A DNA stretch of 64,000 nucleotides from a virus. The notes beneath the pieces are model-generated. The model did no database searches, was not told the origin of the DNA, and saw only the letters and a list, made by a program, of their open reading frames with translations. The position numbers and the translations under genes are program-made. Location: IMG/VR virus record IMGVR_UViG_3300045988_044010; one strand, written 5' to 3'. Below are positions 3,600 to 63,430 of the stretch, piece by piece. Within the stretch, counting starts at the first letter, position 1, and each line of letters starts with the position of its first letter.

Positions 3600-3601
3600 A
3601 A

Positions 3602-3859
3602 ATGACAAACAAAGTAGATAATAAATTAAGATATAGCGCTATCATAGACAATAGATCTGTGGTAGCAGCTATATGTATAAATGAACTAGAGTTTCTAATA
3701 ACACAAACTGATTTCGTATAGGACAGATAGATGTTACAATCTATGATTTGTGGATGTAATAGACAGATTGATACTGACAATCCGTTGAAATTAGAAACAC
3801 TATGTAATATTATAGATTGTAAAGTTTGTAATTCATGTAAGACATGTAACATTTTTTAA
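3602..3859 (+). CDS. Small Cys-rich hypothetical protein (85 codons, 2 in-frame TAG)
   Basis: ATG 3602 to TAA 3857-3859, checked codon by codon. The C-terminal half reads CGCN...LCNIIDCKVCNSCKTCN. The minus-strand ORF 3583..3852 is its antisense shadow. Confidence 0.5.
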
Positions 3860-3895
3860 CGTTAATAAATATTATTAATTTTAAAACTAAATATT

Positions 3896-4213
3896 ATGTT
3901 GATTGATTTTAGAAACATTACAATTAAGAACATTGAGGGAGAAGAATCTACAGTTGATATTTCTAAAGATTTAGGAAATCTATTGTATAATTCTGCAGTA
4001 AGTCAAGAAGGTTTAGAAATATCTAGAGAACTGTATCATAATGGTGAAATGGATGTTACTAAAGAAAATGTAGAAGTACTTAAAGGCATTATAGCTGGTA
4101 ACTTCTTAGCAGTTATACAAGAATCTTTGAACCCTATTTTTGATAAGATCATGAACACTGAAGAAATCGAAACTAGTGCAGAGGAGATTAAGGATGAACA
4201 AACAACTCGCTAA
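3896..4213 (+). CDS. Hypothetical acidic protein
   Basis: Intact ORF in the track with a TAA stop and no TAG. Confidence 0.6.
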   Translation: MLIDFRNITIKNIEGEESTVDISKDLGNLLYNSAVSQEGLEISRELYHNGEMDVTKENVEVLKGIIAGNFLAVIQESLNPIFDKIMNTEEIETSAEEIKDEQTTR

Positions 4214-4385
4214 ATATACTGATAGAGAATTGTTAGAGTGGATCTACTTAATGTAGATCCATATTCTATCCAAAGTAAATGAGATAGATAATGATGATAA
4301 ACAGTTTGGAATGAACTTAGCTGCAGATTTATTGGGTAGTGTAGTATATGATGCTCAACCAAGAACTACAAGATATGCAAATTAA
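4194..4385 (+). CDS. Small hypothetical protein (1 in-frame TAG)
   Basis: ATG 4194 to TAA 4383-4385, hand-translated. It overlaps the upstream gene by 20 nt. Confidence 0.4.
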
Positions 4386-4396
4386 AAAGATATAAA

Positions 4397-4798
4397 ATGA
4401 AATACTTTACTATAAAAGAATTAACAGAATCTACTACAGCTACAGCTAAGAAATTAGATAATACTCCTACAGAGTAGGCAGAGAAGAATCTAATTACTCT
4501 AGTAGAAAAGGTACTTGATCCACTTAGAGAATTGTATGGTAAACCTATTATAGTTAATTCAGGTTATCGCAGTCCAGAAGTAAATAAAGCAGTTAAAGGA
4601 GCTAAGACAAGTCAACATGTATTAGGAGAGGCTGCTGATATAACAGCAGGTAGCAAAGAAGAGAATAAGAAGTTATTTGAGTTAATCAGAGATAACTTTG
4701 AGTTTGATCAACTTATTAATGAGAATGACTACTCATGGATACATGTATCATATAGAGAAGGAAGACTTAGAAAACAAATATTAAAGCTTGGTAAATAA
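4397..4798 (+). CDS. Peptidase M15-type cell-wall hydrolase (endolysin)
   Basis: The sequence reads ...NSGYRSPEVNKAVKGAKTSQHVLGEAADI..., matching the M15 (VanY / L-Ala-D-Glu peptidase) H..G.A.D signature. ATG 4397 is joined to ORF 4532..4798 through one in-frame TAG. Confidence 0.8.
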
Positions 4799-16174: not shown

Positions 16175-16618
16175 ATGTATCCTTTCTATAATCTAGGTTA
16201 CGGTTTTCCTCGTAGAAATGTATAGAGATTAGATAGAGCTGGTATACCTGTAGCACGTACAATATACGTGACTACAGATACCGAAGCTAATCAGGTTACT
16301 TATGGTCTGTGCCCATACCAATGGAGACAATTGCCAAATGAAGGTATCTTACTGTTGAACGTACAGCACACTCCTTCAGCTAGTACTGCTGCGGATGCAG
16401 CTATCCTGATTGATCCTACTCATACTACATCTTCTGTTAACACAGTAAGCAATGTATCTGCGGGAGGAAAACAATTGGTAAATGGTTCTGGTGATCAGAT
16501 GGTTAATCAAGAAGTTACTGTTGGAAATAAATATTTCGTATACTATAATAAGTGTAATGGAATATTCCAAGTAGTAAACCATATTGTTACTCCAGCTGCC
16601 CCAGCTCCAGCAGCTTAA
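16175..16618 (+). CDS. Hypothetical protein
   Basis: ATG 16175 is preceded by AAAGGAGGT and joined to ORF 16268..16618 through one TAG. TAA stop. Confidence 0.6.
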
Positions 16619-16633
16619 TAATAAGGGCTCTAT

Positions 16634-17227
16634 ATGAGCCCTTTAAACACTATACTAATTATGATGACATTTTCCCAATTAAATATTGGTCAACCAATTC
16701 ATGTGCTTGAGGTAGTAGGCACATTTAAAAAGAGTACTACTTACTATAGAGGTATGGTTACTAGCGTATCTAAGATATACGAAGAGCAACTACCACCACA
16801 ACAATTTCCAATGCCTAATTAGACTAGAAAGAAATTAGTAGATATAGTAATTAGTTGTGATGGAGAATCTAAGAAGTTGTCAGTAGAAGAAAACAAATCT
16901 ATAGTGACAGATGGGTCAATAGGTTTAACAGTGGCTACTGATAAACAACAAATAATAAACATGGTTAAAGCTAACTACGATGAATGCAAAGCTAAGAAAG
17001 AAGCAATGGCTAAGTATGATGAAGAGATGAACAAATGCGAGAACATACTTAAGTAGTTAGACTATAATGACAAAGAACCTGAGAAAGAAGATCCAAAGAT
17101 AAAGGAGCTGCAAGATCAGGTAGAAGAACTCAAAGGTTTAATAAAACAAGCGAGTAACATGGTTCCACCTTAGATGAAGTAGATGTTACCATAGAATATT
17201 CAAAAAGCAATGAATGAGGCTAGTTAA
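16634..17227 (+). CDS. Hypothetical protein
   Basis: ORF 16634..16822 extends in frame 2 through five TAGs to TAA 17225-17227, checked codon by codon. The start codon lies inside the hairpin 16623-16643. Confidence 0.55.
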
Positions 17228-17241
17228 TACTAGCCTTTTTT
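17218..17241 (+). terminator. Rho-independent terminator
   Basis: GGCTAGT-TAAT-ACTAGCC (7-bp perfect stem) followed by TTTTTT. It overlaps the stop codon of the preceding gene. Confidence 0.7.
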
Positions 17242-17360
17242 CATTTATAGCCCCAAGAACAAACGCTATTAGTTCATATGGTCTATTGTATTACTTACTA
17301 CGTAAAGTGGCTAGAAACGCCTTAAAATACGTTATTATTATATTTAATAAATAATGCATT

Positions 17361-18017
17361 ATGAAATTAAACACATTGAATACTATTATTGATGATATTC
17401 TACTTGAATTGCGCAACAGTTCTATTGCCGAATCAGAACATATAAGTAGAATACAAATCGAGCAATGGATTCATAACTACAGAGCTATGTTAATTAAATA
17501 GGATATTGATAAAGGAAGAGATATCAATCCTATGTATGTGTAGACTCTGCCTTGTATTCATCTAGATCGTGTTGAGTGCACTCCCGGTCATATTGAATAC
17601 GTAAGTAATATTGAATTACCAAAGCTTATAGACTTTCACTTTAGAACTGGATTAGTATCTGTAAAAGATATGTTCGGCAATTTAATCTAGTTAGGAAGTG
17701 AAACTAAAAACAAATATCAAAAGTATAGAAAATATACATGCAAAGACTACATAGCATATCTGAAAGGTAACAGAATATATGTAGATGGAGGTAATCATCA
17801 GTTAGAATATATCGAGGCAGATGTTATATTAGAGAATCCAGCTGATGCAAATGAATGCTTTGATCCAGATATGCCTTATCCAGCACCAGCTCACATGATA
17901 CCAACTATTAAAGATTTAATCTTTAGTAAAGAGTTAAATATAATGCCAAAAATGCCTACTGATGAGACTAATAACTCTAGAGATGATATGTAGAACATTT
18001 ATAAACAGCAGAAATGA
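17361..18017 (+). CDS. Conserved virion protein (possible head-tail adaptor; function not established)
   Basis: ATG 17361 to TGA 18015-18017 with four in-frame TAGs. It is the first gene after the terminator and heads the tail/ejection-protein run. Confidence 0.55.
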
Positions 18018-18463
18018 CACACAGAAAATCTTACACAATAAGTGACTTCTATTAGTTCTACCTATCTAATATTGAAAGAGATACTGTATATGATATTGAT
18101 TATAAAGTGTACAGACAAATAATAGAAGACTATTTTAAATTTATAGCAGACTAGGTTATTGAACATAGTAGAGAATTTAAACTACCATGCAGATTGGGTA
18201 ATCTAAGTATAGTGAAACGTAGACCTAAGAACTTTGATAATAAGAGTCTAAGGATTGATTATCATGAAAGTGCTATACAAGGTAAAGCAGTATACTTTAT
18301 CAACGAACATTCCAATTTTTTTAAATTCAGATTTTTGTGGTCAAAAAAAGACAGTCTTCTAAAAAATAAAACCAGATATTAGTTTGTTGCCACCAGAGCA
18401 AACAAGAGAAGATTAGCACAAATAATAAAAAATAGAGAGCATGATTACGTGGAGATTCGCTGA
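18014..18463 (+). CDS. Hypothetical basic protein
   Basis: ATG 18014 overlaps the upstream TGA (ATGA) and joins ORF 18194..18382 through TAGs. It ends at TGA 18461-18463. Confidence 0.55.
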
Positions 18464-19196
18464 TGTTAACAAATTACCTGAGGAATCTGGTATTTATATG
18501 ATATTGAATATATTAAACAATCATAAATACGTAGGTAGCACCAATAACTTTAAGAGAAGACTAACCAGACATCGCGGAGAATTACGTAAGGATAAACATC
18601 ATTCCACTTACTTGTAGAGGGCGTATAATAAATATGGTGAAGACAAATTCATAATATATATACTAGAGAGATGTTAGCCTATAAAAGATACTTTGATATA
18701 TTTAGAGTAGAAGTATTTGGATTTAAATCCAGAATATAATATCGAGAAAGTAGCAGATAGAAGATTTACTAAATAGGCAAAGATAAAAACAAATAAGGTA
18801 AAGCATCCAATACAACAATATAGTTTAGACGGTAATTTTATCAGAGAATTTGACAGTATAACACAGGCAGCCAAATGGTGTGGAAATAAAAACAAACACC
18901 CTCAAATATCTTTGTGTTGTTAGGGTAAATTGATCCAAGCGTGCGGGTATCTATGGAAATATAAGAATGATGATAGAAGCATTATGCAAGTAACAAAACA
19001 ACCTTGTGATAAAGGAATAAAAGTTGATCAATTAGACATAAACGGGAACTATATTAAAACTTATGATAATATGAGAATAGCTGCAGAATCAAATGGATCA
19101 ATACAAAATAGATCTGCTATAAATAGAGTATGTAGAGGATAGAAGAAAACAGCTTTTGGGTATAAGTGGAGATACCATACAAATAATATATTATGA
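18441..19196 (+). CDS. Free-standing GIY-YIG homing endonuclease (5 in-frame TAG)
   Basis: The N-terminal half reads SGIYMILNILNNHKYVGSTNNFKRRLTRHRGELRKDKHHSTYL-Q-RAYNKYGEDKF. Two C-terminal repeats follow the pattern Q.D.NG..I..(F/Y)D....AA......I...C.G (NUMOD-like). Confidence 0.85.
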
Positions 19197-20104
19197 TAGA
19201 CAATAATATGATATCATCTAAAGCAGTTATAGCCAAAATAATTGCTGATTTAGATTTAAAAGAAGATGAAGTTAAAATAACCGATATAAGAGAATATATT
19301 GGTGAGGCTATGGAAAAGATAGGTGCTATATAGCAACTAGAACATAAAGTAGAAAATATTCCTGTAATAGGTTACTAGGCAAAGTTGCCATGTGATCTAT
19401 ACAGATTAAATTAGGTAGCATTTTCATTTGAGAATAGTTGTGGTTGGTTACCCATGAGAAAGGTTACCAACTCTTTTGGTGTTTATACCAAATGTGATAA
19501 ATGCGATCCTAATATGATAATTGGAGATAACGCTCTTATACCTTTGGTAAAGAATTTATACAACCTTATAGATGATAGGTCTGCATTAGATATCATTAAC
19601 TCTGATCCTAACGTTAAAAAGACATTAAGTGCTTTAGTAAATCAATATACTATACCTAGTGTAAATGGTAGACTTATAGTAGGTAATCCAGCATCATTAA
19701 ACGGATCATTACAATACTCTACTAAACCGGGGTATATTACAGTTAATGTTCCTTGTGGTTGGGTTAAGATATCTTATCATGCTATCATTACTGATGAAGA
19801 TAGTATGCCTATGATACCTGACAATCCTTCTTATTTCGAAGCTATATTTTGGTATGTAGCTATGAAGTTATCTTATCCTAAGTATCTAAAAGGACAACTG
19901 AATCAAAACATATACTATGATATGAAGAACTCATGGAACTTCTATCGTAGACAGGCTTACGCAGAAGCTATGATGCCGGGTGTAGATGAAATAGAATCTA
20001 TCAAGAATGATTGGCATAAGTTATATACAGAGTTTGATGATCATGATACGTTCTTTGCTACTACTGGAGATGAACAAATAATATATAATTAGAATAGATT
20101 ATGA
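19193..20104 (+). CDS. Virion/tail protein (function not established)
   Basis: ATG 19193 is joined to ORF 19454..20092 through TAGs. Read-through of TAG 20090-20092 ends at TGA 20102-20104, giving an ATGA overlap with the next gene. Confidence 0.6.
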
Positions 20105-26457: not shown

Positions 26458-28416
26458 ATGGCAGCAAATATGTACGATCAAGCCGCATAGGCTTAGTTTA
26501 TTAATACTTATGCTCCAATTAATTTTGGAGAATTGTTTAGAATTGGTGCAGCGCAGAAAGAAGAAATGGATAGAGCTGCCCAACAATTTGGAGCATAGTT
26601 ATAGAAGTTTGGAGAATTTAGATCACCGTCTGCTGTAGATACTCAAAGATATTATGATCTTACTACTGGTAGACAGGATATACAAGATGCTATAAATCAA
26701 ATGGTATCCAACCCAGATGCTTTGAAGGATGCTTCCTTTAGATCTAGCTTACAGTCGTTAATTAATAATGTAGATTATTCTTCATTAAGTAAGCTAAAAC
26801 AGAGTGCTGAAAATCTGGATGCTAGACAGAAGATGATAGCTCAGATGAGGGCTGCTGGTAAATATAATTAGAATTGGGATGATATAAATATAGGAGAATG
26901 GAATACTTTAGAAGGTGGTATTATGACAGATCTTGCTCCTATAGAGTATTTAACAGCTAACGCACTGAGTAACGCATACTTTGATAACTTAAAACCCAGT
27001 ACACTTAGTCCTGTATATAAAGATGGAGTAAAATATCAAAGACAAGGCATTACCTATGATACTTTGAAAGGTATAGCAGACGCTAGATTCAATGACTTAA
27101 TCAGAACTCCACAAGGTCAAAAGTATTATGAAGATGCATTAAGATCTGCTAACGGTAATGAAGATATAGCTAGAGAAGCATTTACTACCATGATAGCTGA
27201 TTCTCAGAGAGATAGAATAGTAGAACAAGAAACTGTAGATCCATATTGGTTAGCTCAAGCTAAACATTCAATGACAAGATCAGGTAGTACTGAGATAGTT
27301 AGACCTCAACCTACAAGACTTGATTTTCTTAATGATACCATGTATAAGTCTGTTAAGAATAAGGTAGGAGCTAGATTAGATACTGGTTATAGGGATTACA
27401 TACAAAGTCTTATCACTAAATACCCTAATACCAAAATAGCAGAAGATGCTAAGAAGGGATTAGCAAATATAGATAATATGACTGACAAAATGGTACAGTT
27501 AGGAGAAATGGCTAATTTATATGCTAAGAGATATGAAGCTACTGGTAGTGATCAAGATTTTATCAATTACAATACAGCTTTTAATATGGCAAGAGACTAT
27601 CAAAATAGATTACTACAACAAGGAAATAAATATGTATTAAGAAATGAGTTTCAAAATGTTGCTGGATTTTCTCCAATATCTGTATCTACTAATAAAGAAT
27701 TTAATACAGAGAAATATTTATCTGGTATAAATTCAGCATTAGATGTTATTAAAGGTAAAATAGGTATTACTAAGGATGATGAGTTATTAACTGCAGTAGG
27801 AGGAAGACCATCTACAGTGGTAAATGATAATGGTACTACTAACGAAATATTTAACTTTGATTCTAGTAATGGTTTCTTAATGCCTGAAACTGTATTCAAT
27901 ATAGCAGCAGATGTGAAACCTAGAGAAATTAAAAGAGCTGCTGGTACATTTAGAAGTGGAGACTTCCCTTTGAAAGAATTAGTAGAAGGCGGGAAGCTTA
28001 AGGATGTACAATTCAAACCAGATAATGGAGTTATTAAAATAGGAGATAATTTTGCTTTATCTGGAAAAATAAGAATACCCAAGGATGAAATAACTAGGTA
28101 TATCAGTACCGGCATATTCTCATTACCTAGAGGAAAGCAATACGAAACTACCAACTTCCCAACTACAGTGTAGAGCATTAGATCATCTATAGAAAATTTA
28201 TTTGGTGGTAGAAAGGTAACTGAGAAAGTAGGAGAAGACGGAAAAGAATTCTATGAAATTGAAAGTTATAAAGTATTACCTAAGGAAGATATATCCTCAG
28301 AATATTGGCAAAGAGTAAATCAATCTTGGCAAGGAGGAAAATCAGGGCTTGGCGGAGCTTCGTAGGCAAAAGATACTTATATGGATTCAGCAGAACAATT
28401 ATTATCAGGAGTATAA
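26458..28416 (+). CDS. Virion (ejection/cargo-type) protein
   Basis: ATG 26458 is joined to ORF 26923..28173 (frame 1). Read-through of TAG 28171 ends at TAA 28414-28416. Confidence 0.65.
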
Positions 28417-28421
28417 TTAAT

Positions 28422-31400
28422 ATGGCAAAACAAAAAATATATGATCCTAGTTTGATCAGTAGTGTAAGACAAAGAAGTCGTGATTATAGTAACTATCTAT
28501 CTCCCAAAGCGGATTTAGATAGTTATGTTCATACTATGTCAAATATTCCTACATAGGATAGTGCGCCAGATTCATTTGGTGTTTCAGATTATTTGTCTAA
28601 TGCATTCTATGATTGGAATCTTACTAGAAATGAAACTAATAAAGATACTGCTTTAGGTGAGTATGTCTTTCTACAAAAAGACTATGATATACTAACAGGA
28701 GCTCAATAGTACTTAGAAGGGGTAAAGAATGTTCTTTAGTTACGCAAAGCTATGGATACGGATCCTAATGCTAACACTCCAGAAAATAAACAGTTACTAA
28801 GAGAAGAATCTATCAAAGTATAGAACAATAAAGTTAATTATGACAAATTATTAGCTAAAGACTTTAATGATCAAGCTGTTCGTGATAATATATTTCCTGA
28901 AAGATTTGCTGGTAGACCTATAGACTTACAGATAGAGATCATACAAACTGTACTAGGTGATGGTGAAATAGATAGACAAGGTGTAATAGCTAGAAGAGAC
29001 GATGCTTTAAAGAAAGCTGAGAAATATAAAAAATTTGCAGAATATTGGCAAAGTAAAATGACATCTCAATATTATAGTGATAAGAAGAATTCTCCCGGTA
29101 TGGATCTAACGGATATAGACACGTATCTGTATAAACTACCGGGTCTTTTAGGTTCATCTGCTTCTAGCGCTGGCTCCTAGTTAATAGGTACTCTTGGTGC
29201 TATGTTTAGTACAAGAGGAGCAGGTGGTGTTATGGGTACTTTAGGCTCATTGACTGCGTTTGTAACAGGAAATGTGTACGCAAGAGATCAAGAATCTAAA
29301 GCTGAAGTATATCAAAACTATAAGTAGAATGTAATGAATTCTGCTAAAAAAGATGGTATAGACAAATAGGTACTTAAAGATGCTAAATCTCAAATGCAAG
29401 AAATGGGTTATACACAAGAACAAATAGATAATGATGATTTTGTGTATGAACAAATATTGTCTAATAAAGTAAAGGTAAATAACAATTCTTTAAACCGTAT
29501 AAGACTTAATAAAATGGATGGTTTAAAGTCTCTTTATACAGACAATATGGCTTTATCTGGAAGTGATATAGTTCAGACAGTACTAGAAGTAACTCCATTG
29601 GGTCCTATAGCTAAAAAAGTAAGAGGATTATCGTCTTTAAAAAAACTTGCTAACAGCAAATATGGTAAAACAGCTTAGGTAATTGCTAGTAAAACTGGAA
29701 ATCTTAAACAACAGTTAGCAGATAGAATTGACGATGTTGTAGCATTTGGCATAGAGAGTATAGACAAATTACCTAGACTTACTAGAAGAAAGGCAATAAA
29801 AGACATAGCTGGTAGAATTGTAATAACATCGGCTTTAGAAGGAGCAGAGGAAGGAGTTCAGTATATAAAAGGTCAAAGATATATAGATGGAGATTTTGAG
29901 TCTGATCCTAATCTGATCAGTAGCTACGTACGTAATTTAGGTACTGGCGCTAGATCTGTATTTGCTGCTATTACTCCATGGGATCCAGTATATTCAGATG
30001 ACTAGGAGTTTATGGAGAACTTTAAAGGTGGTGCTCTATTAGGCGGTTTGATGACTTCTGTAATAGGTACTGCAACTAGTATTAAACCTTTAAATGATCA
30101 GATATCTGGTGATAGATTCTTAGCTGCTTTATATGCAGATAGAGAGGCATAGAAAGATCAAGTTCGTAAGAACATACTATATGGTTCTAAGATAAGAGAA
30201 GGTAAATGGAATACTGTTGAAACAGCGTTTGATAATCTTGTTAACTCTAAAATAGATGGTATAGATGTAGCTGAAATCTAGGAAGAACAGAAAAGAGCTA
30301 GATAGATGTATAATATATTTACCTCTAATAGAACTGTAGCACAAGCTCAACAGTTAGACATAGATCCAAGAACCGAAGATTATGATATATTTGTAGCTTT
30401 AAAAGATCACCACGATCAGCAAGTAAGAGATGCTAGAGCTACTGCTACTGAACACAGAAGTGAAGCTGATAATTTACTGTATAGTCCTCAAGTATAGGAA
30501 TACATTGAGAAACTTAATATAAAAGATATAGATCAAGTATCTACTATGAGAAGCGCTATAGCAGCTAAAATTCAACTTGATACTATGTTCCAGTTATATA
30601 ACGAGTTTGAAAATAAACAAAAGACTAAACTAGAGTAGATACAAAAACATACTGGTACTAAAACATCAAAAGCAGATGTAGTACAGTTTGCTGGAATGCT
30701 TAACAAAGATATTAAATCATTCTAGGAACAGTATGAGAATCTGAAAAAACAGGTTACAGCTCTGGGTATCAAGGAAGAAGATTTAGAGGTTCCATCATTG
30801 CATCAAGATTTAAAAGAAGCTTATGAGAAAGTTATAGCTTCTGAATTAGATCTTAGACGAGCTGAAATGGAACAAACTATTATGGAATCCACAGATAAAG
30901 AAGCCATATAGGCTAAGATAAATAAGTGGAAAGATGTAGAGGATGCTAGTAATAAGTTTATGTAGCGTCTGGATGACTTATACTCAGGTAAAACAGAAAA
31001 GCAGAATGAACAAGATTCTGAAGATGTCAAACCTGAAGTGTATGAGCAATCACCAGAACCAGTACCTTCTACTATAGAGGATGAGGTTAAAGAACCCACT
31101 GATATTTCTGATAAAAGAAAATAGATAGTTTAGAACAGAGAATAGTATTTTACTCAGGAAAGAGATTCTAGAGGAAGTAATAAATTTGTTTTAAATCCAG
31201 ACAATACATTTGGTGATGCCTATAAAAATGCTAATATAAAACTTCAGCAGTCATATAAATTATTATTCCCAAATACAAAAAACTATTCTGACAATGCTGC
31301 ACAATCTAGGTTAGCATCTTCTAATCGTCATGGTGAAGTAGCTGATGCTTGGGAAGAGGTGTATAATCTTCGTAATCAATTAGAAGAAGAAGTAGGAGAA

Positions 31401-34400: not shown

Positions 34401-37400
34401 ATACCAATGAGACAAAGGAATGCCGATGGTTCATATTCAGCTAAGATAGATGCAGTTACCAAATTTCCTAGTTTTGTAGATTCTAATACTGCTTGGAATA
34501 ATGTACTAAAAGATTTAGCAGGGTGTAGAACTATTGCCAATATTATGGATAGAATAGTTCTACTGTCTCAAAATGATCAATTCTATGCATCGTTGTTGAT
34601 AAAGTTCGCAGATTTAGTTCAAAGATCTACTAATTCAGATCCTAATGTTGCTATAAACGCGGAAGCTATGTTAACTAAGTTAGAAACTGTGATTACTTCT
34701 GATATAAACAACTATGTTACTGCAAAAATATCATAGGATGAAGCCGGAATGACTACTATGAAATTAACAGACAATACTGTTGATATGAAAGCTATGCAAT
34801 ATCCTAAAGTGTGGTCTAGGAATATGTTTGAAAATTCTGGCATATTTAAATATAATGAGGATGGTATAGTAGTTGCACAGGATAACGCTAAGAGCAAAAT
34901 AAACACAGTTCTTAATGCCCTAAGTACGATCAAACAAGCATTTGTAAATAATAAGGGTATTATACGTACTAAGGATGGTAATTTTGATTTACATGAAATT
35001 CAGAATCAAGAGAGGCTTAAAGATTACATAGTTTCTATATTATAGGAAGTAGGAATTGGGATGGATAAACCTACTATAAATAAGATGTTGTTATCTGGTG
35101 ATTATGGTAATCCTAAGTCTGATCCATATACATTGCTAAACACATTTGTAGTAAATACTGTCAACTTTGGTGGATTAAGTAAAATATCTGATACATTAAA
35201 GATAATTCAAGATGCTATAAAACCTGATAATACTTTGTCTACTATAACAATAAGTGGTAAAGATACATTACCTACACAAATATGGAATGAAGTTGGCTAT
35301 GTTAAAGCATTGGCTAATTATTATGCTTTTGTACATGCTACAGACAAAGGATTAGGTAGTTTAGGTCCAGATGGTAATAGTTATTATATGGTTTCTCAGA
35401 ACAATTTTGCTAAAGACCGAGTAAACGAATTAATAACTGATCCAGAATTGTTCCACAATCTAGAAGCTGTAGTATATAATGAACATTCTATTATACTGAG
35501 TGCAGTAAGAAATGGTAATAAAAATATCCAAGTAGAGACTTTCATTAATTTTAAAGATGAAACTAGTTATGATGCTGGTAGAGATTACTTTAATATAACT
35601 CAAAGAGAAGACTACCTTGCAAAAATGACTGCTATCTTTAATGACAGAATAATATTCCCTACAGTAGCAGATAAGAAGACATATCATTTCATTAGAGGAA
35701 TTAAATTGCCTCACGAAAGAATTAGATTTACTAAAACAGGTAATGGTGTTAACATATTATACGGTGAACAATCGTTAGATACAATTATAGGTTATTGTCA
35801 AGATGAATTAAATCAGATTGAATTGTGTTTAAGACAAATTGACGATGATCCTACTCATTATGATAAAGATAAGAATATCCACTATAATGCTGATGGAACT
35901 ATAAACAACGACTGGTTGGATCCTTCTCGCAGAATTAAGAACTTTCATACTCCTAATGAATATAAGTATACAGATGATAAAGGTACAGAGCATACTGTAA
36001 TGTTAGAAGGTAACGGATCTAGATTCTTATTCTTAACCGGAGTATATGTTAATGGGAAGTTCATAGATTTTAACGATCCATCTAAATCTGCTATAGAAAA
36101 TTTATAGACTGCTAAAGATTATTTCTTTAATGCTCCTATTGATACTCAGAAACAATTGATAAGTGGACTGATCAATAGAAGAATGAAGGATGAATTAAAG
36201 ACAGCTAGAGATTTAGGGCTTATAGAAATTAATGAAAATCTAGATATCTGGAGTATTAGAAACAAACTATTAGATGATAATGTGCTTGCAGAAAGACAAC
36301 AAGCGTATGAATCATTGGATGCTAATAATGCAGAAGGCTATGCAATATTTGATATGCTTGCAGATTATACTATTAATAGTATTATATCTGTAAGTGAAAT
36401 AGAGAAAATATTCAATGGAGCACCTGCTTACTATAAAGTAAAATATGACAGAACCGGTATATTAGACTTATCTGTAGATAAGATTAAACGTCTTGGTTCA
36501 TTAACTTCTACTGGTACTAATAATAGGTTAGACTTCTTCAGTAATGATCCTATGAGAGAAGAATACGTAGTAGCTGAACTCAAAGATCATGAAATCCAAA
36601 GTAAACAATATTATACATATCGTAATCTATTTACTTTAGGTAATATAAAAGAAACCATTCAAGAAATGAATGGTGAAGAGGCTTGGAATGAAGTTAAGGA
36701 TCTATCTATACAAGAAATAGAGAAACAATATCCAGAAGAAGTAAAAATAGCCAAACAAGCTGCTGAAGTAGAAGTTAGAGGTTATAAAGAGGGAATAAAC
36801 GTAGCTGACGCTGCTGTTTACATAAGTCCTATAATGACCAGAGATCTTCTTAGAATGCGTGGACAGTGGAGCCCTGAAATAAAAGAAGCTTTCGATATAC
36901 TTATGAATGAAGATACTGCTGAACAGTGGGATTCTAATCCTGAGTTATATGCGAGAGCTAATAAGGTAATACTTAATGCTATGAAGTATATGGCATTTGG
37001 TACGAGATTTAATGAAATTCCCGGTTTAGGAATACCTTATTTTAATAAAATGGCTTTGTTCCCATTATTTAAATCTGTAGCTACTGGAGATATAAGAGCT
37101 TTGTATGATAGGATGATGGATGAAGATCCTAACAGGAGAATTGATATGGTTATGTTTGATTCTGCTGTTAAGGCTGGATCTAGAGCACCAATGAAAGCAT
37201 ACAGAGCTGCTAAAGACAGTGAAATAGAGTTAAAAGATGGACAGACTGTATTATCGGCTCATTTAACAGATCAATTACAAAGTGGAGAAGGTAATACTCT
37301 GAATGACTTTAATAACCTAGTTACATATACTTAGAAGTTTAAATACTTACGTCAACAGTTGGCTACAGATCCTCATATTCACGAGGAAACTATGGCTGGT

Positions 37401-46658: not shown

Positions 46659-47622
46659 CTTCTTCGTAATATTTACGAGTATGGTCCCAATTACCTGTCT
46701 GATAATGATATGATATTTCTGTTAATGCTTCTGCTATTAGGTCTTTGCGATCCAACAACTCTTTCTCATTTAACATATTAAAAACACGTACTTCATTATT
46801 ACCATTACTCTGAATAGCAATAATATACGCTTCTAAATCATATTCTTCTATATCATAACCTTCTTCCTTGAAATACCAAGTAAGAGCTAGTATATAGAAT
46901 GCTATCTGTCTATAATAATCATATTCTTCTACAGAATGCTTGAAATTATAAACATCAGCAGTTGTTTTTAAGTCAATTAATGTAATCCTTCTATTACAAT
47001 GGTCAATCTTGACTCTATCTAATAGTGACTTACAGGATACATTTGCTTTTTCATATTCCCAATTTATATGAAACTCATTATTACATTCTAAACCGGGCTG
47101 ATTTGTAAGTAACTCACTTGCTTTTTTATGATTATCTATGTTTTCCTTAATACGTCTAAGCATAGTTATATCAGCAAATGATATTACTGTTTTGTTAGCT
47201 TTTTCAAGTTTTAAGTATGAAATATATTCTCCGAACGAATCAACTATCTGTTTAGCTTCTTCTAGTTTTTTCTCATTAGATTTACTATTACTATAAGCTT
47301 TATTATAGCTATTAAGCAATAATTTATCATTATCTTCTAGAGGATTTACAGCTAATTCTTGAACATATTCTATACATAAAGTTTTTTGTTGACTTACTTT
47401 AGGTACTACAAAATCTAAGATTATATAGTTATCCCAAAATTCGTCTGGTTGAAGTAGGTACATATGTATCATAGTTCCTTTTTCAAGAAACTTTCCACTA
47501 ATACCTTCTTCTTTACCATCAAGCATATCCTTGAGGTAACGAGGTCCTTTCTTCAAGAACCATCCTATTGCTGAATTTGATATTCGCGTGTTATCTTCAT
47601 AATACGGAATTTCTATTTTCAT
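46636..47622 (-). CDS. PD-(D/E)XK nuclease (RecB/Cas4-like exonuclease family)
   Basis: The sequence contains ...RITLIDLKT... (D-x-K) followed by YYRQIAFYILAL (QxxxY). Confidence 0.7.
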   Translation of the reverse strand: MKIEIPYYEDNTRISNSAIGWFLKKGPRYLKDMLDGKEEGISGKFLEKGTMIHMYLLQPDEFWDNYIILDFVVPKVSQQKTLCIEYVQELAVNPLEDNDKLLLNSYNKAYSNSKSNEKKLEEAKQIVDSFGEYISYLKLEKANKTVISFADITMLRRIKENIDNHKKASELLTNQPGLECNNEFHINWEYEKANVSCKSLLDRVKIDHCNRRITLIDLKTTADVYNFKHSVEEYDYYRQIAFYILALTWYFKEEGYDIEEYDLEAYIIAIQSNGNNEVRVFNMLNEKELLDRKDLIAEALTEISYHYQTGNWDHTRKYYEEDGTEELE

Positions 47623-53114: not shown

Positions 53115-53143
53115 TCTGATAAATATCTGATAATTTCTGCTAG
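53115..53143 (-). promoter_or_regulatory. Phased TTATCAGA-type repeat cluster upstream of the ATPase gene
   Basis: On the plus strand, TCTGATAA starts at 53115 and 53126, and TCTGCTAG at 53136 (10-11 nt spacing). The cluster lies 26-54 nt upstream of start codon 53089. Confidence 0.5.
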
Positions 53144-55249: not shown

Positions 55250-55279
55250 TCTGAAATATATCTGATAAGCCTCTGTTAA
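55250..55279 (-). promoter_or_regulatory. Phased TTATCAGA-type repeat cluster upstream of gene 54654..55220
   Basis: On the plus strand, TCTGAAAT starts at 55250, TCTGATAA at 55261 and TCTGTTAA at 55272 (exact 11-nt spacing). The last copy overlaps the polymerase stop codon. Confidence 0.5.
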
Positions 55280-57245: not shown

Positions 57246-57368
57246 AGTCCATGAGAAGATTCGAACTTCTAACTTAGGCATTTATTATCAGGCTCTACAG
57301 TCTGTTTATTATGATGCCAGAGGTCGTTGGAACCCCACTTTTTGTTTTGCCTATTAAACTACATGAAC
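57246..57368 (-). ncRNA. tRNA-like element 2 (123 nt) with about 50 extra nt in the core
   Basis: In the minus sense: acceptor GTTCATG/CATGGAC (7 bp, one G-U), D arm GTTT-AATAGGCA-AAAC, and T arm AGAAG-TTCGAAT-CTTCT. Between them lie hairpin GGGGT-TCCAACG-ACCTC and a 42-nt arm GGCAT...ATGCC. That arm contains an ATAATAAA direct repeat flanking 16 nt. Confidence 0.45.
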
Positions 57369-60277: not shown

Positions 60278-60925
60278 CTATTGTTGTTCGATGTTAATGT
60301 TAAGGTTTACTTCCTCGCTATTCTGCGGTTCTACGCCACACTGGCGAGCATACTCAACCTGCATGCGTTCCTGCTCTTCCTGCATGCTCCGAACAGTACC
60401 ACTAAGTTTAGTATACTTACGAGCAAGCTCTTCATAGAATGTGCATACACTTGTGTTATGAAGTGCCAGCAATTCATTGAGCATTGGCAATTCTTCAGCT
60501 GAGAAGAAGATAGGTTTACCACCTTTCTTTCCAATCCGGCTAATACAATCAGCGATTGTATCACGAGTTGCTTTAGCAAGCTGGGGCGGAACAAGGTTAA
60601 ATACTAAATTCGGATCGTTACTTTCCGGATTCAACATGATCTTCGGTTCACCGTCAAAATCTTTCGGTAAGAACTTCAAACCGGTAATGTCGATAGGTTT
60701 AATCAGGAACACAGTTACTTCTTTCCGTAACGTATTCTTATCATTAAGTACGTCTTCCTTGTACTTAAGATCTGGATTTGTACCTACGATAGTATAGATC
60801 TGTTCTGAGAAGAAACGACCATACTGTTTTGCTACAGCCCGATAACGAGCAAGAATCTGAGAAGCAATATTAGCTTCAGGGTTTGTCTGAGCACTATTTG
60901 TGCTAGCAGTTACTTGTACTTCCAT
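60278..60925 (-). CDS. Hypothetical protein (GC-enriched gene), TAG stop
   Basis: The track ORF starts at TTG 60964. I prefer ATG 60925 (MEVQVTAS...), but the start is uncertain. Confidence 0.65.
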   Translation of the reverse strand: MEVQVTASTNSAQTNPEANIASQILARYRAVAKQYGRFFSEQIYTIVGTNPDLKYKEDVLNDKNTLRKEVTVFLIKPIDITGLKFLPKDFDGEPKIMLNPESNDPNLVFNLVPPQLAKATRDTIADCISRIGKKGGKPIFFSAEELPMLNELLALHNTSVCTFYEELARKYTKLSGTVRSMQEEQERMQVEYARQCGVEPQNSEEVNLNINIEQQ

Positions 60926-61113
60926 AAAAATGTTTCCTTTCTGAGTCCGTACTTGATATACCAATACGAACCATTTTTATACTCTTGGTTAATAATTAAT
61001 TTTAAGCTCTCCACCTTTCGATTATTTAATAGCACTACAGTAATGGTAGTGGTGAATTCAATCACATAATCTACTCAGCATAAAAATAATAAATGTTAAT
61101 TTATTTGAAAATA

Positions 61114-61150
61114 TCTGATAATGATAAGATCTCTGATAATTTTCTGATAA
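61114..61150 (-). promoter_or_regulatory. TTATCAGA-type repeat cluster next to an AT-rich tract (early promoter/operator or origin candidate)
   Basis: On the plus strand TCTGATAA starts at 61114, 61132 and 61143, and TGATAAG lies at 61122-61128. An AT-rich run at 61081-61113 is adjacent. Confidence 0.45.
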
Positions 61151-61160
61151 ATATCGTTTT

Positions 61161-63004
61161 AACGTCCCGTTTCGACGGTTAAGATTCAACTCCTTCGATG
61201 CTTAACGCACCTCTCACCGTTATTTCATATCGCTATTAGATGCAATATGAAAGACTTTATCATCAGTTCACGATGAACCTACTTAGTATTTCCGGATTTA
61301 TCGAAATTCGTTTGAATTACGGTCGTTTATCTAACGTTACCAACTCACAAGCTCATTACCTATAGTATGACCCACTTGTACCTCTCGGATTTCTTATTTA
61401 TACTGCACGAACACGAGGATTTCCACCTCTCATCGTCTCCTTGCTTGCTTAGCTGCTATTGCTACTAAGTGTACTCTCCCTTAAATCTACCGAGACAGGG
61501 TGATAGGAGGCAGGTCATTGACGAATCAGCGTTCTCTTTACATATATACTTGCGGTATATACTTTATGAGTTTCTAATGTCAGCGATGACGGTTGGCAGT
61601 CTGGGGTGACTCGTACTCCATGCGGTCTATCTTACAACTGATAATTTGCTACTTCTGTACTATCATTGAACTTCCCAATTTCATATATCAGGTTATCAGC
61701 CTAATACGAGATTAAACAATTTGAAAACACATTTTACCATTAGCTGGTTTTCTTCAGCTTTTACTGTTTTCAGATTAAGAATATATCTGTCATCACATCT
61801 ATATTCACTACCTTCTGGTTGTAGGATTCCAACCCTACAGCAGCTGTATTCTTACTTTAGTAAACTTAGTTTAAAGTACTTCTACTATATAGTTATTACT
61901 TCTCTTCAACTCAGGAGTGAGGCGATGCTTGTAATTAACCAGTCTTTACATATCTTGAAAAACATAAGCTCTGCTGTTTTTTAGTAGGAGTTCCTAGCGT
62001 CTCCTTAAAATCATTTTATATCATAATCATACTTGCTAAAGGTATGTGATAACTAGAATCAGGGTTATCGCGCCCTCAAACCGCTTAGACACTCTGGGTC
62101 TATTCATTCCTCATTCAATTATACTCACACGAACGAATAAGCACGTGAGTCACCTTAGACTTGAAAGACGGTATCAATCTCATATACCTCATCCCTTATA
62201 CGTAAGTTCTTTTGCGGCACGCTAGTTACGGTAGCGCACAGGATTGGCTCCTGCTCCCTGGTAATCAGTCTATTTTCACCACAGTTTAGCATGGTTACTT
62301 AGGATCATTGCATGTCCAGCCTTCATATCCTTACTTTGTATAAGTATGTACCATAACACGGTTATCCTTACATTAGTATCAGTTATTTACTCCCTTTATA
62401 TTACGAACCAATTATCGTAAAAACACTAGAGTTAGCCTATTTTTCCAATCAGGACGCATAGTTGCGCTTTTGTATGAAGCGAGGTTGGAACCCGCTTGTT
62501 GCGTTAGTCAGCCTTAATATTGTCCAACAATCCTTTTCCAAGGGATTGTTCAAGAACACTTTGTTCTTGTCTCAGCATCGTGTTTATATTCCTTTTTGAG
62601 TCACATCTTGATAGTGCATACGAATATAGGGATTTCGTTCCCTTTGAGCTGTTTGTAATTCAGTGTGTCTTCTCTTAAATTACGAGTCTTTAATTAATCA
62701 AATCACCAATCGGTTCTCATTATCATAATCTTATTTGAAGGTTGCTCACTCTCACCTCCTCTTACACAGGTTTCACGTGTGTAAGCTAACATCTTACCTT
62801 TTGTTATCTCAACTGTTTTAGCAGTATACATATTCTCAGATCATGTACTTTTCGGACCATGTGTAAATGAACACAAGCTTCCTGACACAGTGCGCATTGT
62901 CTTATTTTAGACACCGCTTGCCTTCTGTCGGAGTGATTTACGCTATAGTTTTACTCCTCTCGAACTATGACATAATTATAGTATTTATAAAGCGGCTATT
63001 GTCA
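61161..63004. other. ORF-free, GC-enriched region (candidate large structured RNA or cis-acting region)
   Basis: The track shows no minus-strand ORF of 60 or more codons, and only one low-complexity TTG-initiated plus ORF. TTA, TCA, TAA and TGA are frequent in all frames I sampled, so TAG recoding does not rescue coding. Several perfect local hairpins are present. Confidence 0.5.
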
Positions 63005-63430
63005 TTAACTTTTTTCCGCTGAGGATTTATCTTCTCCTGCATTAAGTTGCTCTGGTTTGATTAGCGCAATTTTTCCAGATGATAAGTTGATATTTGCAAC
63101 TACCTTCTCACCACGGCATATATCTACTATGCCATCGCTTATATCTCTACTACAGATATAATCAATCGGATCCATTTTACCCGGATCAAAACCATCCAAG
63201 CATTTACATAAATACCTTACAGACGAACGTAAGTACTGCTCTAAGTATAGGGTATTATCTACACTCTGCTTTGTCTTAGCTTCAAGAGAGTTACTAGATT
63301 CTCCTTGAATAATAAAATATTCAGTTTGAACTATGGCATTATTTAACTCACGCCTAGCATTCTTGAAGTTACGAATAATCCGAGATAATCTCATCATCGA
63401 ATTAAGCGTAGAAATATTCCTATTCTTCAT
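63005..63430 (-). CDS. Hypothetical protein
   Basis: Intact standard-code ORF with a TAA stop. Confidence 0.65.
   Translation of the reverse strand: MKNRNISTLNSMMRLSRIIRNFKNARRELNNAIVQTEYFIIQGESSNSLEAKTKQSVDNTLYLEQYLRSSVRYLCKCLDGFDPGKMDPIDYICSRDISDGIVDICRGEKVVANINLSSGKIALIKPEQLNAGEDKSSAEKS

What the first reader, a model, noticed from the sequence alone, without database searches (positions are those of the whole stretch)
60965..63004. About 2 kb with no plausible coding capacity in any code, GC-enriched and rich in perfect hairpins: candidate large non-coding RNA
This stretch lies between two co-oriented early genes and has no minus-strand ORF of 60 or more codons. It has only one low-complexity, TTG-initiated plus ORF. 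Hand translation of sampled parts shows TAA and TGA in all frames, so TAG recoding does not help; the longest minus ORF I met is about 45 codons, near 62.1-62.3 kb. Sampled 60-nt lines are about 38-52% GC, against about 28-30% in the late genes. The plus strand is pyrimidine-rich, so a transcript co-oriented with the flanking genes would be purine-rich. Local structures include CCGT-TTCG-ACGG (61167-61178), an 8-bp hairpin (62526-62550) directly abutting a 7-bp hairpin (62551-62569), and ACGA/GAGG...CCTC/TCGT (61409-61437). There is also a possible long-range pair, CCTCTCGG (61381) with CCGAGA-CA-GG (61490). A T-arm-like hairpin, GCGGG-TTCCAAC-CTCGC in the minus sense (62479-62495), shares the 9-mer GTTGGAACC with tRNA-like element 2 (57326-57334). 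Large ornate RNAs of unknown function (GOLLD and ROOL types) are known to associate with phages and tRNA genes, which makes this the best candidate for something undescribed.
Basis: partly seen in the sequence, partly recalled or inferred. Interest (0 to 1): 0.8.

Follow-up and report, generated by a model that had tools for sequence, protein, structure and literature searches.

The report
Giant structured RNA of gut crAss-phages
The 2-kb "empty" stretch is real and encodes a very large, intricately folded non-coding RNA that is conserved in every branch of one family of crAss-like gut phages (Suoliviridae), matches no described RNA family, and has no known function.

Summary
Window 60926-63004 has no coding capacity under any stop-codon recoding and no codon periodicity. 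The window is a Buchavirus-like crAss phage (Suoliviridae).

The interval is conserved in place, length (about 1.9-2.5 kb) and sequence in all five Suoliviridae subfamilies. It is better conserved than the genes beside it.

On 19 non-redundant homologues, the consensus fold has 416 pairs:
- 94% of cells are paired, against 38-41% in slid controls.
- 169 pairs change on both sides, against 42-52 in slid controls.
- The consensus energy lies about 44 SD below column shuffles.
- G-U outnumbers A-C 747 to 114, so the RNA is minus-sense, like the flanking genes.

A covariance model of one 162-nt core domain finds full-length matches in four other subfamilies.

Rfam 15 gives nothing: not GOLLD, ROOL, OLE, an intron, RNase P or tmRNA. 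No paper found describes it.

The nearest precedent is phage phi14:2, where long intergenic regions of the early operon are transcribed early, abundantly and stably. No homology to them is detectable.

Verdict: a new, rRNA-scale structured ncRNA family, body about 1.85 kb. It is followed by a promoter-like TTATCAGA array and a structured leader. Transcription, transcript ends and function are inferred, not shown.

The parts
60926..63004 (-). Whole non-coding interval between the stop of the 141-aa gene and the ATG of the 215-aa gene.
   Evidence: No ORF under any recoding. No period-3 signal. Syntenic 1.9-2.5 kb gene-free gap in all five Suoliviridae subfamilies.
61160..63004 (-). Body of the structured RNA, about 1.85 kb. 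The ends are inferred from conservation and structure, not mapped.
   Evidence: RNAalifold consensus -478 kcal/mol against -185 +/- 6.6 for column shuffles. 416 pairs, 94% of cells paired, 169 pairs with changes on both sides. G-U 747 against A-C 114.
62836..62982 (-). 5' domain: a closing helix (62963-62958 with 62840-62836) around four hairpins. It starts 22 nt after the upstream stop codon.
   Evidence: Helices 2-9. Hairpins 62928-62887 and 62875-62860 have 3-4 compensatory pairs each.
62737..62835 (-). Three consecutive hairpins (62835-62803, 62796-62765, 62759-62737), followed by the motif UGAGAACCG, which is invariant in the 19-sequence set.
   Evidence: This block (profile positions about 155-430) is recognisable in seven of the eight other-subfamily records tested; cr118_1 gives no hit.
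62587..62642 (-). A hairpin with an invariant ACGAAA loop (62642-62629), then a nested hairpin (62626-62587) and the motif UAUAAACACGAUG.
   Evidence: The loop is identical in 19 of 19 sequences. 2-4 compensatory pairs per helix. The motifs are shared with Bearivirinae.
62526..62569 (-).
   Evidence: 10 pairs with 7 compensatory, and 7 pairs with 3 compensatory (helices 25-27).
62478..62496 (-). Hairpin with a 7-nt loop and the conserved loop sequence YUCCAAM (T-loop-like).
   Evidence: 6 pairs, 3 compensatory, 99% paired. No tRNA model match in the gap at E up to 10.
62162..62372 (-). Central multi-branch domain. It has two stacked long-range helices (62372-62364 with 62169-62162; 62348-62338 with 62201-62190). 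It is the best-conserved block in Loutivirinae and holds the 16-mer AACCGUGUUAUGGUAC.
   Evidence: 8 pairs with 2 compensatory, and 10 pairs with 6 compensatory, 99-100% paired. The inner hairpins have invariant loops GCCAA and AUGAGAUUG.
62028..62140 (-). Three hairpins (62140-62100, 62085-62051, 62046-62028), including the invariant segment GAGGGCGC.AUAACCCUGA.
   Evidence: 2-4 compensatory pairs each. Conservation 0.83-0.92.
61690..61925 (-). Variable middle region with lineage-specific insertions and deletions. It holds one covarying hairpin (61843-61815) that is absent in cr4-like genomes.
   Evidence: Lowest conservation, 0.32-0.64. Indels are visible in A1 and A2. The hairpin has 6 compensatory pairs.
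61402..61681 (-). 3' core domain: a three-way element at 61676-61603, then helices closed by 61600-61595 with 61408-61402. It contains a GCAA-type loop hairpin and the invariant UGGAAAU-loop hairpin.
   Evidence: Covariance model R1 (61518-61681) gives full-length hits in Bearivirinae (80 bits), Boorivirinae (51), Oafivirinae (50-51) and Uncouvirinae (47). Across subfamilies 93% of cells are paired and 24 of 31 pairs change on both sides.
61163..61380 (-). 3' cluster of hairpins, ending with the CCGUCGAAACGG hairpin at 61178-61163.
   Evidence: Helices with 2-7 compensatory pairs (61380-61346, 61336-61324, 61287-61254, 61252-61223, 61206-61178).
61108..61152 (-). Array of TTATCAGA repeats with 11-nt spacing in an AT-rich stretch. 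Inferred to be the promoter or operator of the next gene, and the likely 3' limit of the RNA.
   Evidence: Tandem repeat of period 11. The same tandem motif lies just upstream of three other minus-strand genes, at 46698-46716, 53115-53133 and 55250-55279. It gives 9 matches against 2.9 expected.
60946..61079 (-). Structured leader of the 215-aa gene: a nested element at 61079-61013 with the invariant AGUAGAUUAUGUGAUUGAAUUCAC, and a hairpin at 60970-60946 just before the ribosome-binding site and ATG 60925.
   Evidence: Helix 61051-61046 with 61038-61033 has 6 of 6 compensatory pairs. Helix 61071-61066 with 61025-61020 has 2.
63005..63430 (-). Upstream flanking gene (141 aa, no known family). 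Its stop codon abuts the RNA.
   Evidence: ORF list. No Pfam or PHROG match. Clear period-3 conservation, ratio 38.
60278..60925 (-). Downstream flanking gene (215 aa, no known family).
   Evidence: Only 40-63% amino-acid identity in relatives whose RNA is 74-83% identical at the nucleotide level. Period-3 ratio 183.

Best explanation
The interval encodes, on the minus strand, a very large multi-domain structured non-coding RNA. The body is about 1.85 kb (63004 to about 61160), with about 50 hairpins and about 90 helices.

SHOWN
- It is not coding.
- Its secondary structure is under strong purifying selection.
- The RNA-sense strand is the one shared with the flanking genes.
- It is a syntenic hallmark of the whole family Suoliviridae. 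It sits between the sigma-factor/early-gene block and the PolB replication module.
- It belongs to no Rfam family.

INFERRED
- It is transcribed with, or like, the early leftward operon. By analogy with phi14:2, that operon would be read by the injected virion RNA polymerase.
- It accumulates as one or more stable RNAs and acts in trans as a folded RNA: a scaffold, a ribonucleoprotein core or an RNA-only assembly, used in host take-over or in the switch to replication. It is probably not a cis leader.
- The invariant hairpin loops and A-rich joiners (44% A in unpaired positions) point to tertiary contacts or bound partners.
- The TTATCAGA array at 61152-61108 probably restarts transcription for the next gene, whose 5' leader is itself structured.
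For: NON-CODING
-.

STRUCTURE
- Consensus MFE -478 against -185 +/- 6.6 for shuffled columns.
- 94.0% of cells paired against 38-41% when slid. 169 pairs with a change on both sides against 42-52. Covariation score 0.303 against about 0.06. 0 of 500 shuffles reach the observed value on four of the five measures; the count of further pair types does not exceed the shuffles (294 of 500).

STRAND
- G-U 747 against A-C 114, and minus-sense folds 30 kcal/mol better than plus-sense.

CONSERVATION
- 74-83% nucleotide identity across three genera, where the neighbouring protein is 40-63% identical.
- 80 full-length homologues among 119 IMG/VR hits.

FAMILY-WIDE
- A gene-free gap in all subfamilies, in phages from human, pig and macaque.
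- Colinear nhmmer blocks.
- Core-domain covariance-model hits with cross-subfamily covariation.

NOT A KNOWN FAMILY
-.

PRECEDENT FOR EARLY, ABUNDANT, STABLE LONG ncRNAs
- From a long intergenic stretch of a crAss-like early operon: Drobysheva et al., bioRxiv 10.1101/2020.03.07.982082, and the 1.7-kb gene-free region of phi14:2.
Against: - No expression data exist for any Suoliviridae phage; none is cultured, according to the 2023 review PMC10136315. Transcription, transcript ends and stability are inferred.
- No helix longer than about 210 nt in span has covariation support. A mutual-information scan found no run of long-range pairs. The region could be two or more adjacent RNAs rather than one molecule.
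- Single-sequence folding energy is only slightly better than shuffles.
- No recognisable promoter or terminator bounds the RNA.
- No RNA-binding partner was identified among the neighbours.
- The covariance model R1 missed three Suoliviridae genomes: cr10_1, cr118_1 and cr272_1.
Confidence: 0.85

Rival explanations
1. It is a cis-acting giant leader or regulatory region. The structured RNA is the 5' untranslated part of the mRNA for the downstream replication-module genes. It would control their expression, for example by antitermination, attenuation, or control of translation or stability, and would not act in trans.
For: It is co-oriented with the downstream genes and sits immediately upstream of them. 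The last about 170 nt (61079-60946) are clearly a structured leader ending at the ribosome-binding site. No terminator-like site was found on the minus strand inside the gap.
Against: About 90 conserved helices over 1.85 kb is far more than any known leader needs. A promoter-like TTATCAGA array, shared with three other minus-strand genes, separates the RNA body from the leader. The RNA is better conserved than the gene it would regulate. In phi14:2 the comparable transcripts stay abundant after other early mRNAs decline.
Confidence: 0.1
2. It is an origin-of-replication element. Its transcript would prime or activate DNA replication, like ColE1 RNA II or transcription-activated phage origins. 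The 11-nt TTATCAGA repeats would serve as iterons.
For: It lies at the head of the replication module. It has an AT-rich stretch with 11-nt periodic repeats at 61108-61152. The replication origin was not located here.
Against: The same tandem motif lies directly upstream of three other genes, which fits a promoter or operator better than a unique origin. Cumulative GC skew runs monotonically through the region with no turning point. Primer RNAs need one or two structural switches, not 2 kb of conserved helices.
Confidence: 0.05
3. The conserved pairing acts at the level of single-stranded DNA. Examples would be hairpin promoters of the N4 virion-polymerase type, or packaging or replication signals.
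For: The transcription programme of crAss-like phages resembles that of N4, as stated in the review read; that N4's virion polymerase recognises DNA hairpins is from my own knowledge. Covariation alone cannot separate RNA from single-stranded DNA of the same strand.
Against: There are about 90 helices, multi-branch domains and long A-rich joiners. G-U-type pairs are very frequent (747 cells), and these are much less stable as G-T in DNA. The phi14:2 study found no common motif upstream of early transcripts.
Confidence: 0.02
4. It is a degenerate or ORF-less self-splicing intron or other mobile RNA element. Alternatively, it is a region of real small genes read in an unusual way.
For: Delta-group crAss-like phages carry many group I introns and use TAG recoding (Yutin et al. 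2021, PMC7886860). Some deposited genomes annotate small CDSs inside the gap.
Against: No group I or II intron model matches, even at E up to 10. The interval lies between two complete genes with their own stop and start, not inside a gene. Its position and length are fixed across a whole family, unlike mobile elements. There is no period-3 signal and no shared open frame. The annotated small CDSs overlap conserved RNA blocks and are not conserved as frames.
Confidence: 0.02

Closest known systems
Early long non-coding RNAs of Cellulophaga phage phi14:2 (crAss-like, Steigviridae). Source: Drobysheva et al., bioRxiv 10.1101/2020.03.07.982082.
   Same: Both lie in a long gene-free stretch (1.7 kb, NC_021806 2905-4601) in the operon upstream of the PolB replication genes. 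Both are co-oriented with those genes and purine/A-rich in the sense strand. The phi14:2 regions are transcribed above most genes, from the earliest time point, and stay abundant late. Their function is unknown.
   Different: There is no detectable sequence or covariance-model similarity. No structure or covariation analysis is reported in the text read. That phage belongs to a different family and infects a marine host. Here there is structure evidence but no expression evidence. Homology is therefore untested beyond sequence.
GOLLD, ROOL and OLE: large ornate bacterial and prophage RNAs that form RNA-only multimers, shown by cryo-EM (Kretsch et al. 2025, PMC12286853).
   Same: It is of the same kind: a very large, multi-domain, covariation-supported ncRNA with many conserved loops and unknown biochemical function. 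Like this RNA, GOLLD and ROOL are often phage-associated (from my own knowledge).
   Different: It is not a member: no Rfam match at gathering score or at E up to 10. It is two to three times longer (about 1.85 kb, against roughly 600-800 nt from my own knowledge). It sits in the early region of a crAss-like phage, a group described as incapable of lysogeny (PMC8375218), not next to tRNA genes in prophages. Multimerisation is untested.
Ro60/TROVE protein with a Y RNA (YrlA-type, tRNA-like), as apparently present in phage crAss001.
   Same: crAss001 encodes a TROVE protein in its early operon (Gp96). It is followed by a 0.9-kb gene-free gap holding a 144-nt tRNA-like RNA. This shows that crAss-like early operons can encode ribonucleoprotein components.
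   Different: The conserved 491-aa protein upstream of the Suoliviridae RNA shows no TROVE similarity. Pfam gives nothing, hhalign probability is 0.1%, and Foldseek E-values exceed 0.4. No tRNA-like module lies in the gap. The RNA is more than ten times larger than Y RNAs.
Self-splicing group I and group II introns of delta- and zeta-group crAss-like phages.
   Same: They are large structured RNAs, common in the same phage family (PMC7886860).
   Different: There is no model match. It is not inserted in a gene, carries no homing-endonuclease or reverse-transcriptase ORF, and has a fixed syntenic position.

Membership tests
GOLLD / ROOL / OLE / HEARO and all other Rfam 15 families | Match to the family covariance model at or near its gathering score. 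| tested here: not met
   There were 0 matches at gathering score in the whole window. Only five chance-level hits (E 1.2-6.7, 14-22 bits, far below gathering score) appeared in 60800-63200. Nothing was found in the gaps of five related genomes.
Group I / group II self-splicing introns | Catalytic-core model match and insertion within a host gene, with flanking exons forming one reading frame. | tested here: not met
   No intron model hit at E up to 10. The flanking ORFs are separate genes with their own stop and start in all relatives.
tRNA / tmRNA / RNase P / rRNA | Model match (ARAGORN, Rfam). | tested here: not met
   ARAGORN found none. Rfam found none in the gap.
phi14:2-type early long ncRNAs of crAss-like phages | Location in a long gene-free stretch of the operon upstream of the replication genes, in the same orientation. 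| tested here: met
   The window gap lies 3.7 kb upstream of PolB and is co-oriented. The phi14:2 gap 2905-4601 lies 5 kb upstream of PolB.
phi14:2-type early long ncRNAs of crAss-like phages | Early, abundant transcription that persists late in infection. | not testable with these tools
   No RNA-seq is available here, and no Suoliviridae phage had been cultured as of the 2023 review (PMC10136315).
phi14:2-type early long ncRNAs of crAss-like phages | Sequence or structure homology to the phi14:2 RNAs. | tested here: not met
   nhmmer with the 2-kb profile gave no hit at E up to 10. Covariance model R1 gave no hit. Only one phi14:2 sequence was available, so structural homology cannot be excluded.
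Ro60 (TROVE) - Y RNA ribonucleoprotein | A TROVE-domain protein encoded nearby, and a Y RNA with a tRNA-like or Ro-binding stem. | tested here: not met
   The 491-aa neighbour has no Pfam hit. A profile search against PDB sequences gave nothing. The AF2 model (pLDDT 68) gave Foldseek E above 0.4. hhalign against crAss001 Gp96 gave probability 0.1%.
Protein-coding region with recoded stops | An open frame under some code, and three-base periodicity of substitutions. | tested here: not met
Structured non-coding RNA (generic) | Conserved base pairs maintained by compensatory changes, above controls, with strand asymmetry of wobble pairs. | tested here: met

The most novel reading that the evidence does not exclude
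A single RNA chain of about 1.9 kb folds into a defined three-dimensional machine of ribosomal-RNA scale. It could be a catalytic RNA, or a self-assembling scaffold or cage in the manner of ROOL and GOLLD. Every Suoliviridae phage would make it early in infection and need it to take over its Bacteroidales host. That would make it the largest non-ribosomal structured RNA known in bacteria or their viruses, and a new functional class.
Probability: 0.25. Interest if true: 0.95.

Novelty: new variant of a known kind. Interest (0 to 1): 0.82.

Why it matters
[quoted passage not shown] The delta group (Suoliviridae) was the largest group there and held 13-18% of the crAss reads (PMC7886860). A 2-kb RNA kept in every subfamily, and better conserved than the proteins beside it, is likely to be central to how these phages work.

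**Size.** The described large structured RNAs of bacteria and phages (OLE, GOLLD, ROOL) are about 600-800 nt. This one is two to three times larger. It would extend the known size range of non-ribosomal structured RNAs.

**A target for structural work.** It is a natural candidate for cryo-EM.

**A link to experiment.** It ties the unexplained "long non-coding RNAs" seen in phi14:2 to a covariation-supported structure in a second family. Early long ncRNAs may therefore be a general trait of Crassvirales.

**Annotation.** Several deposited genomes carry spurious small CDSs over this RNA, which this result corrects. The RNA also offers a conserved nucleic-acid marker for Suoliviridae.

Tried and rejected
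1. **Rfam.** The gathering-score scan of the window and the E up to 10 scan of the gap gave nothing usable.
2. **ARAGORN.** No tRNA or tmRNA.
3. **Coding under recoded stops, or small conserved ORFs.** Rejected.
4. **TROVE/Ro60 lead.** It was suggested by the TROVE early protein of crAss001. The 491-aa protein two genes upstream of the RNA was tested with Pfam, a profile search of PDB sequences, an AlphaFold model at pLDDT 68 with Foldseek against PDB, and hhalign against crAss001 Gp96. There was no similarity. The model is an all-alpha protein of unknown fold.
5. **Flanking proteins.** Pfam and PHROGs gave no families. The AlphaFold model of the 215-aa downstream protein reached only pLDDT 45, so no fold search was run.
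6. **Homology to the phi14:2 non-coding region and to the crAss001 early region.** None by nhmmer or the covariance model.
7. **Long-range or tertiary covariation by mutual information on 38 sequences.** Only isolated pairs appeared, confounded by phylogeny. There is no evidence for or against a global fold.
8. **Sigma-70-type promoter and intrinsic-terminator scan.** No more sites than in shuffles.
9. **Internal repeats (CRISPR-like or iteron arrays) in the RNA body.** None, apart from the 11-nt TTATCAGA array at its 3' side.
10. **Scan of bacterial genomes for host clues.** Only 4 of 42 16-mer hits are real. All four lie on phage-length contigs (about 98-100 kb) binned into unrelated MAGs, which I take to be mis-binned phage genomes. 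No host could be inferred.
11. **p-crAssphage.** It could not be fetched: the accession is not in the collection.
12. **Literature searches for a prior description.** Searches found none. Yutin et al. [quoted passage not shown] The csRNA catalogue of Fremin et al. holds motifs of 151 nt or less and does not mention crAss.
Full report
**What the window is.** The finding lies in a crAss-like phage of the family Suoliviridae, subfamily Loutivirinae, close to Buchavirus. BLASTN of 60900-63100 against GenBank phages aligns over nearly its full length at 74-83% identity with cr60_1, cr109_1, cr113_1, cr56_1, cr52_1 (Buchavirus) and cr53_1 (Blohavirus), and in several pieces covering about two thirds of the query with cr4_1 (Buorbuivirus). 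In every one of these genomes the match fills a gap of about 2.1 kb between two minus-strand genes of unknown function. That gap lies a few kb upstream of PolB and downstream of a sigma-factor gene.

**The observation.**
- The interval has no coding capacity. The longest stop-free run on the minus strand is 51 codons.
- Recoding TAG, TGA or both does not open a gene-sized frame.
- The downstream gene starts at ATG 60925, so the gap is 60926-63004.
- GC (37.1%) is only modestly above the window mean (32.9%) and equals that of the adjacent genes.
- The pyrimidine bias of the plus strand is shared by the whole minus-strand gene block.
- Folding each half alone gives z-scores of only -1.3 and -2.5 against dinucleotide shuffles.
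- On one sequence, then, the hairpins are not statistically remarkable. The case rests on comparison.

**Homologues.** Eighty of them hold a full-length homologue of 2.05-2.2 kb. Dereplication at 96% left 19 sequences with 66% minimum and 72% median pairwise identity. Conservation is high along almost the whole interval, with one variable stretch at about 61925-61690.

**Not coding.**
- The power of three-base periodicity in column entropy is 0.48 times the median for the whole gap, and 0.05-6.9 in 300-nt windows.
- The same measure is 27-183 in the two flanking genes, aligned from the same genomes.
- On the RNA-sense strand, no stretch of 40 or more open codons is shared by 80% of the sequences.
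- The antisense strand has 40-60-codon open runs, as expected for a pyrimidine-rich strand. None reaches 60 codons in 80% of sequences.
- The small CDSs that some deposited genomes annotate inside the gap overlap conserved RNA blocks.

**Structure.**
- RNAalifold on the 19 sequences gives -478 kcal/mol for the minus sense and -449 for the plus sense. Ten column-shuffled alignments give -185 +/- 6.6.
- Over the 414 predicted pairs of that fold, the cells are 6558 Watson-Crick, 747 G-U, 114 A-C and 352 other. This asymmetry identifies the minus strand as the RNA sense.
- An independent count on the tool-made alignment A2 used a refolded consensus of 416 pairs. It gives 94.0% of cells paired, against 38-41% when partners are slid by 1-3 columns.
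- In that count, 169 pairs change on both sides against 42-52 slid. The covariation score is 0.303 against 0.055-0.069. No shuffle out of 500 reaches the observed values on four of the five measures; the count of further pair types does not exceed the shuffles.
- The fold contains about 50 hairpins. About 40% of nucleotides are paired. Unpaired positions are 44% A.
- Several loops are identical in all 19 sequences: ACGAAA, AUGAGAUUG, UGGAAAU, UAGC.
- The best-supported long helices close domains of up to about 210 nt, for example 62372-62162.
- No helix spanning more than that has covariation support. A mutual-information scan found no run of long-range pairs.
- One molecule or several adjacent RNAs therefore remains open.

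**Breadth.**
- The same gene-free gap of 1.9-2.5 kb sits at the same place in Bearivirinae (cr6_1), Uncouvirinae (cr114_1, cr118_1), Boorivirinae (cr10_1, cr1_1, cr55_1) and Oafivirinae (cr124_1 from human, cr272_1 from pig, cr130_1 from macaque).
- All these gaps are ORF-poor and A-rich in the sense strand.
- A profile of the Loutivirinae RNA finds two to four colinear blocks in cr6_1, cr114_1, cr1_1, cr55_1, cr124_1, cr272_1 and cr130_1, one block in cr10_1 and none in cr118_1 (E from 1e-5 to 1e-26 for the main blocks).
- A covariance model of the 162-nt core domain (61681-61518) gives full-length hits of 47-80 bits in the gaps of four other subfamilies, on the correct strand.
- On that cross-subfamily alignment, 93% of cells pair and 24 of 31 pairs change on both sides. 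The alignment is fitted to the model, so these counts lean towards it.
- The model missed cr10_1, cr118_1 and cr272_1.
- The adjacent 215-aa protein is only 40-63% identical in genomes whose RNA is 74-83% identical. Median nucleotide identity to the window is 74% for the RNA, against 58% and 70% for the flanking genes.

**Boundaries and surroundings.**
- The first helix starts 22 nt after the stop codon of the upstream gene. The RNA is therefore probably co-transcribed with it, or started from within it. This is inference.
- At 61152-61108 lies an array of TTATCAGA units with 11-nt spacing.
- The same tandem motif sits just upstream of three other minus-strand genes. It occurs more often than in any shuffle. 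I read it as a promoter or operator, and as the likely 3' limit of the RNA.
- Between it and ATG 60925 is a separately structured leader. One of its helices has 6 of 6 compensatory pairs.
- A consensus scan for sigma-70 promoters and intrinsic terminators found nothing above chance.

**Comparison with what is known.**
- Rfam 15 has no match at gathering score in the window. It gives only chance-level hits at E up to 10 in the gap.
- The RNA is therefore not GOLLD, ROOL, OLE, HEARO, a group I or II intron, RNase P, tmRNA or rRNA. ARAGORN finds nothing.
- Full-text searches found no description of it.
- Yutin et al. 2021 note only that some crAss-like genomes, mainly zeta, contain regions with no recognisable proteins.
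- The closest precedent is experimental. [quoted passage not shown] Their function is undetermined.
- That region is a 1.7-kb gene-free stretch upstream of the replication genes. It shows no detectable similarity to the present RNA.
- In crAss001 the early operon encodes a TROVE (Ro60-like) protein. It is followed by a 0.9-kb gap holding a 144-nt tRNA-like RNA, presumably a Y RNA of the YrlA type.
- I tested whether the conserved 491-aa protein near the Suoliviridae RNA is a TROVE protein. It is not, by Pfam, a PDB profile search, AlphaFold with Foldseek, and hhalign.

**Mechanism.**
- Shown: a conserved, minus-sense, multi-domain RNA structure under stronger constraint than its neighbours, fixed in position across a phage family.
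- Inferred: it is made early, like the phi14:2 RNAs. It is stable. It works in trans as a folded RNA, as a scaffold, a ribonucleoprotein core or an RNA-only assembly. The invariant loops and A-rich joiners would serve as tertiary or partner contacts.
- Rivals, none excluded outright: a giant cis leader, an origin or primer transcript, single-stranded-DNA structure, and a degenerate intron or cryptic coding region. Each fits the data worse.
- For each rival, the dedicated section names the experiment that would decide.

**Verdict.** This is a new RNA family of a known general kind: large, ornate, phage-borne structured RNAs of unknown function. It is unusual in three ways: its size of about 1.85 kb, its fixed place in the early region of virulent crAss-like phages, and its presence throughout one of the most abundant virus families of the human gut. 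Expression and function remain to be shown.

Noticed in passing
window 57246-57368 (minus strand): Rfam tRNA model hit of 39.2 bits (gathering score 29, E 3.7e-6). About 65 nt sit where the model expects 15, in the anticodon-arm region. ARAGORN and the whole-window gathering scan both missed it. It lies just upstream of PolB, where cr1_1 and cr55_1 carry a tRNA-Val. It could be an intron-containing tRNA, or a tRNA-like (YrlA-type) RNA. The insertion holds the 9-mer GTTGGAACC (plus strand) that is shared with the big RNA. No other tRNA was found in the 64-kb window.
   Followed up: partly
window 46698-46716, 53115-53133, 55250-55279, 61108-61152 (minus strand): Tandem TTATCAGA units 11 nt apart lie 30-60 nt upstream of the start codons of several minus-strand (middle/replication) genes. 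There are 9 matches to the dimer pattern against 2.9 expected, more than in any shuffle. This is probably a phage promoter or operator motif, not described as far as I could find.
   Followed up: partly
L139 (crAss001, MH675552) 35966-36870; tRNA-like hit at 36454-36597: Directly downstream of the TROVE-domain gene Gp96 of crAss001 is a 0.9-kb gene-free gap. It holds a 144-nt Rfam tRNA hit (46.6 bits) that is not annotated in the record. The arrangement is what a Ro60 protein with a tRNA-like Y RNA (YrlA-type) would look like.
   Followed up: partly
L002 and L004 3279-3716 (+); L130 2790-2951; L131 1396-1581: Deposited genomes cr109_1, cr113_1, cr114_1 and cr10_1 annotate small hypothetical CDSs inside, or overlapping, the conserved RNA. 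In cr109_1 and cr113_1 the CDS is on the antisense strand. These frames are not conserved and are probably spurious.
   Followed up: partly
Alignment A1 columns 212-235, 440-508, 645-710, 800-850 (window about 62800, 62650, 62510, 62410): Lineage-specific insertions of 25-100 nt sit at fixed points of the RNA. They resemble expansion segments. cr109/113/56-type genomes carry one set and cr53/cr4-type genomes another. cr4-type genomes also lack the hairpin at 61843-61815.
   Followed up: no
L147, L157, L162, L174 (GTDB genome contigs): Contigs of phage-genome length (about 98-100 kb) carrying this RNA are binned into MAGs labelled Gastranaerophilaceae, Bacilli (rabbit gut) and Sphaerochaeta. 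This is almost certainly mis-binning, and it shows that the family also occurs in rabbit gut samples.
   Followed up: partly
window 60925-60964, and protein P0033: The mechanical ORF call starts the downstream gene at TTG 60964. The alignment shows the conserved start is ATG 60925, preceded by a hairpin and a purine-rich ribosome-binding site. One public gene call (P0033, 260 aa) extends it even further upstream into the structured leader.
   Followed up: yes
window 1-42000 (plus-strand late genes): Under the standard code the plus-strand late region is broken into many short ORFs with gaps, for example 16618-19454 and 28173-31359. That would fit the TAG reassignment reported for delta-group crAss-like phages. 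I did not verify it. No suppressor tRNA was detected in the window.
   Followed up: no
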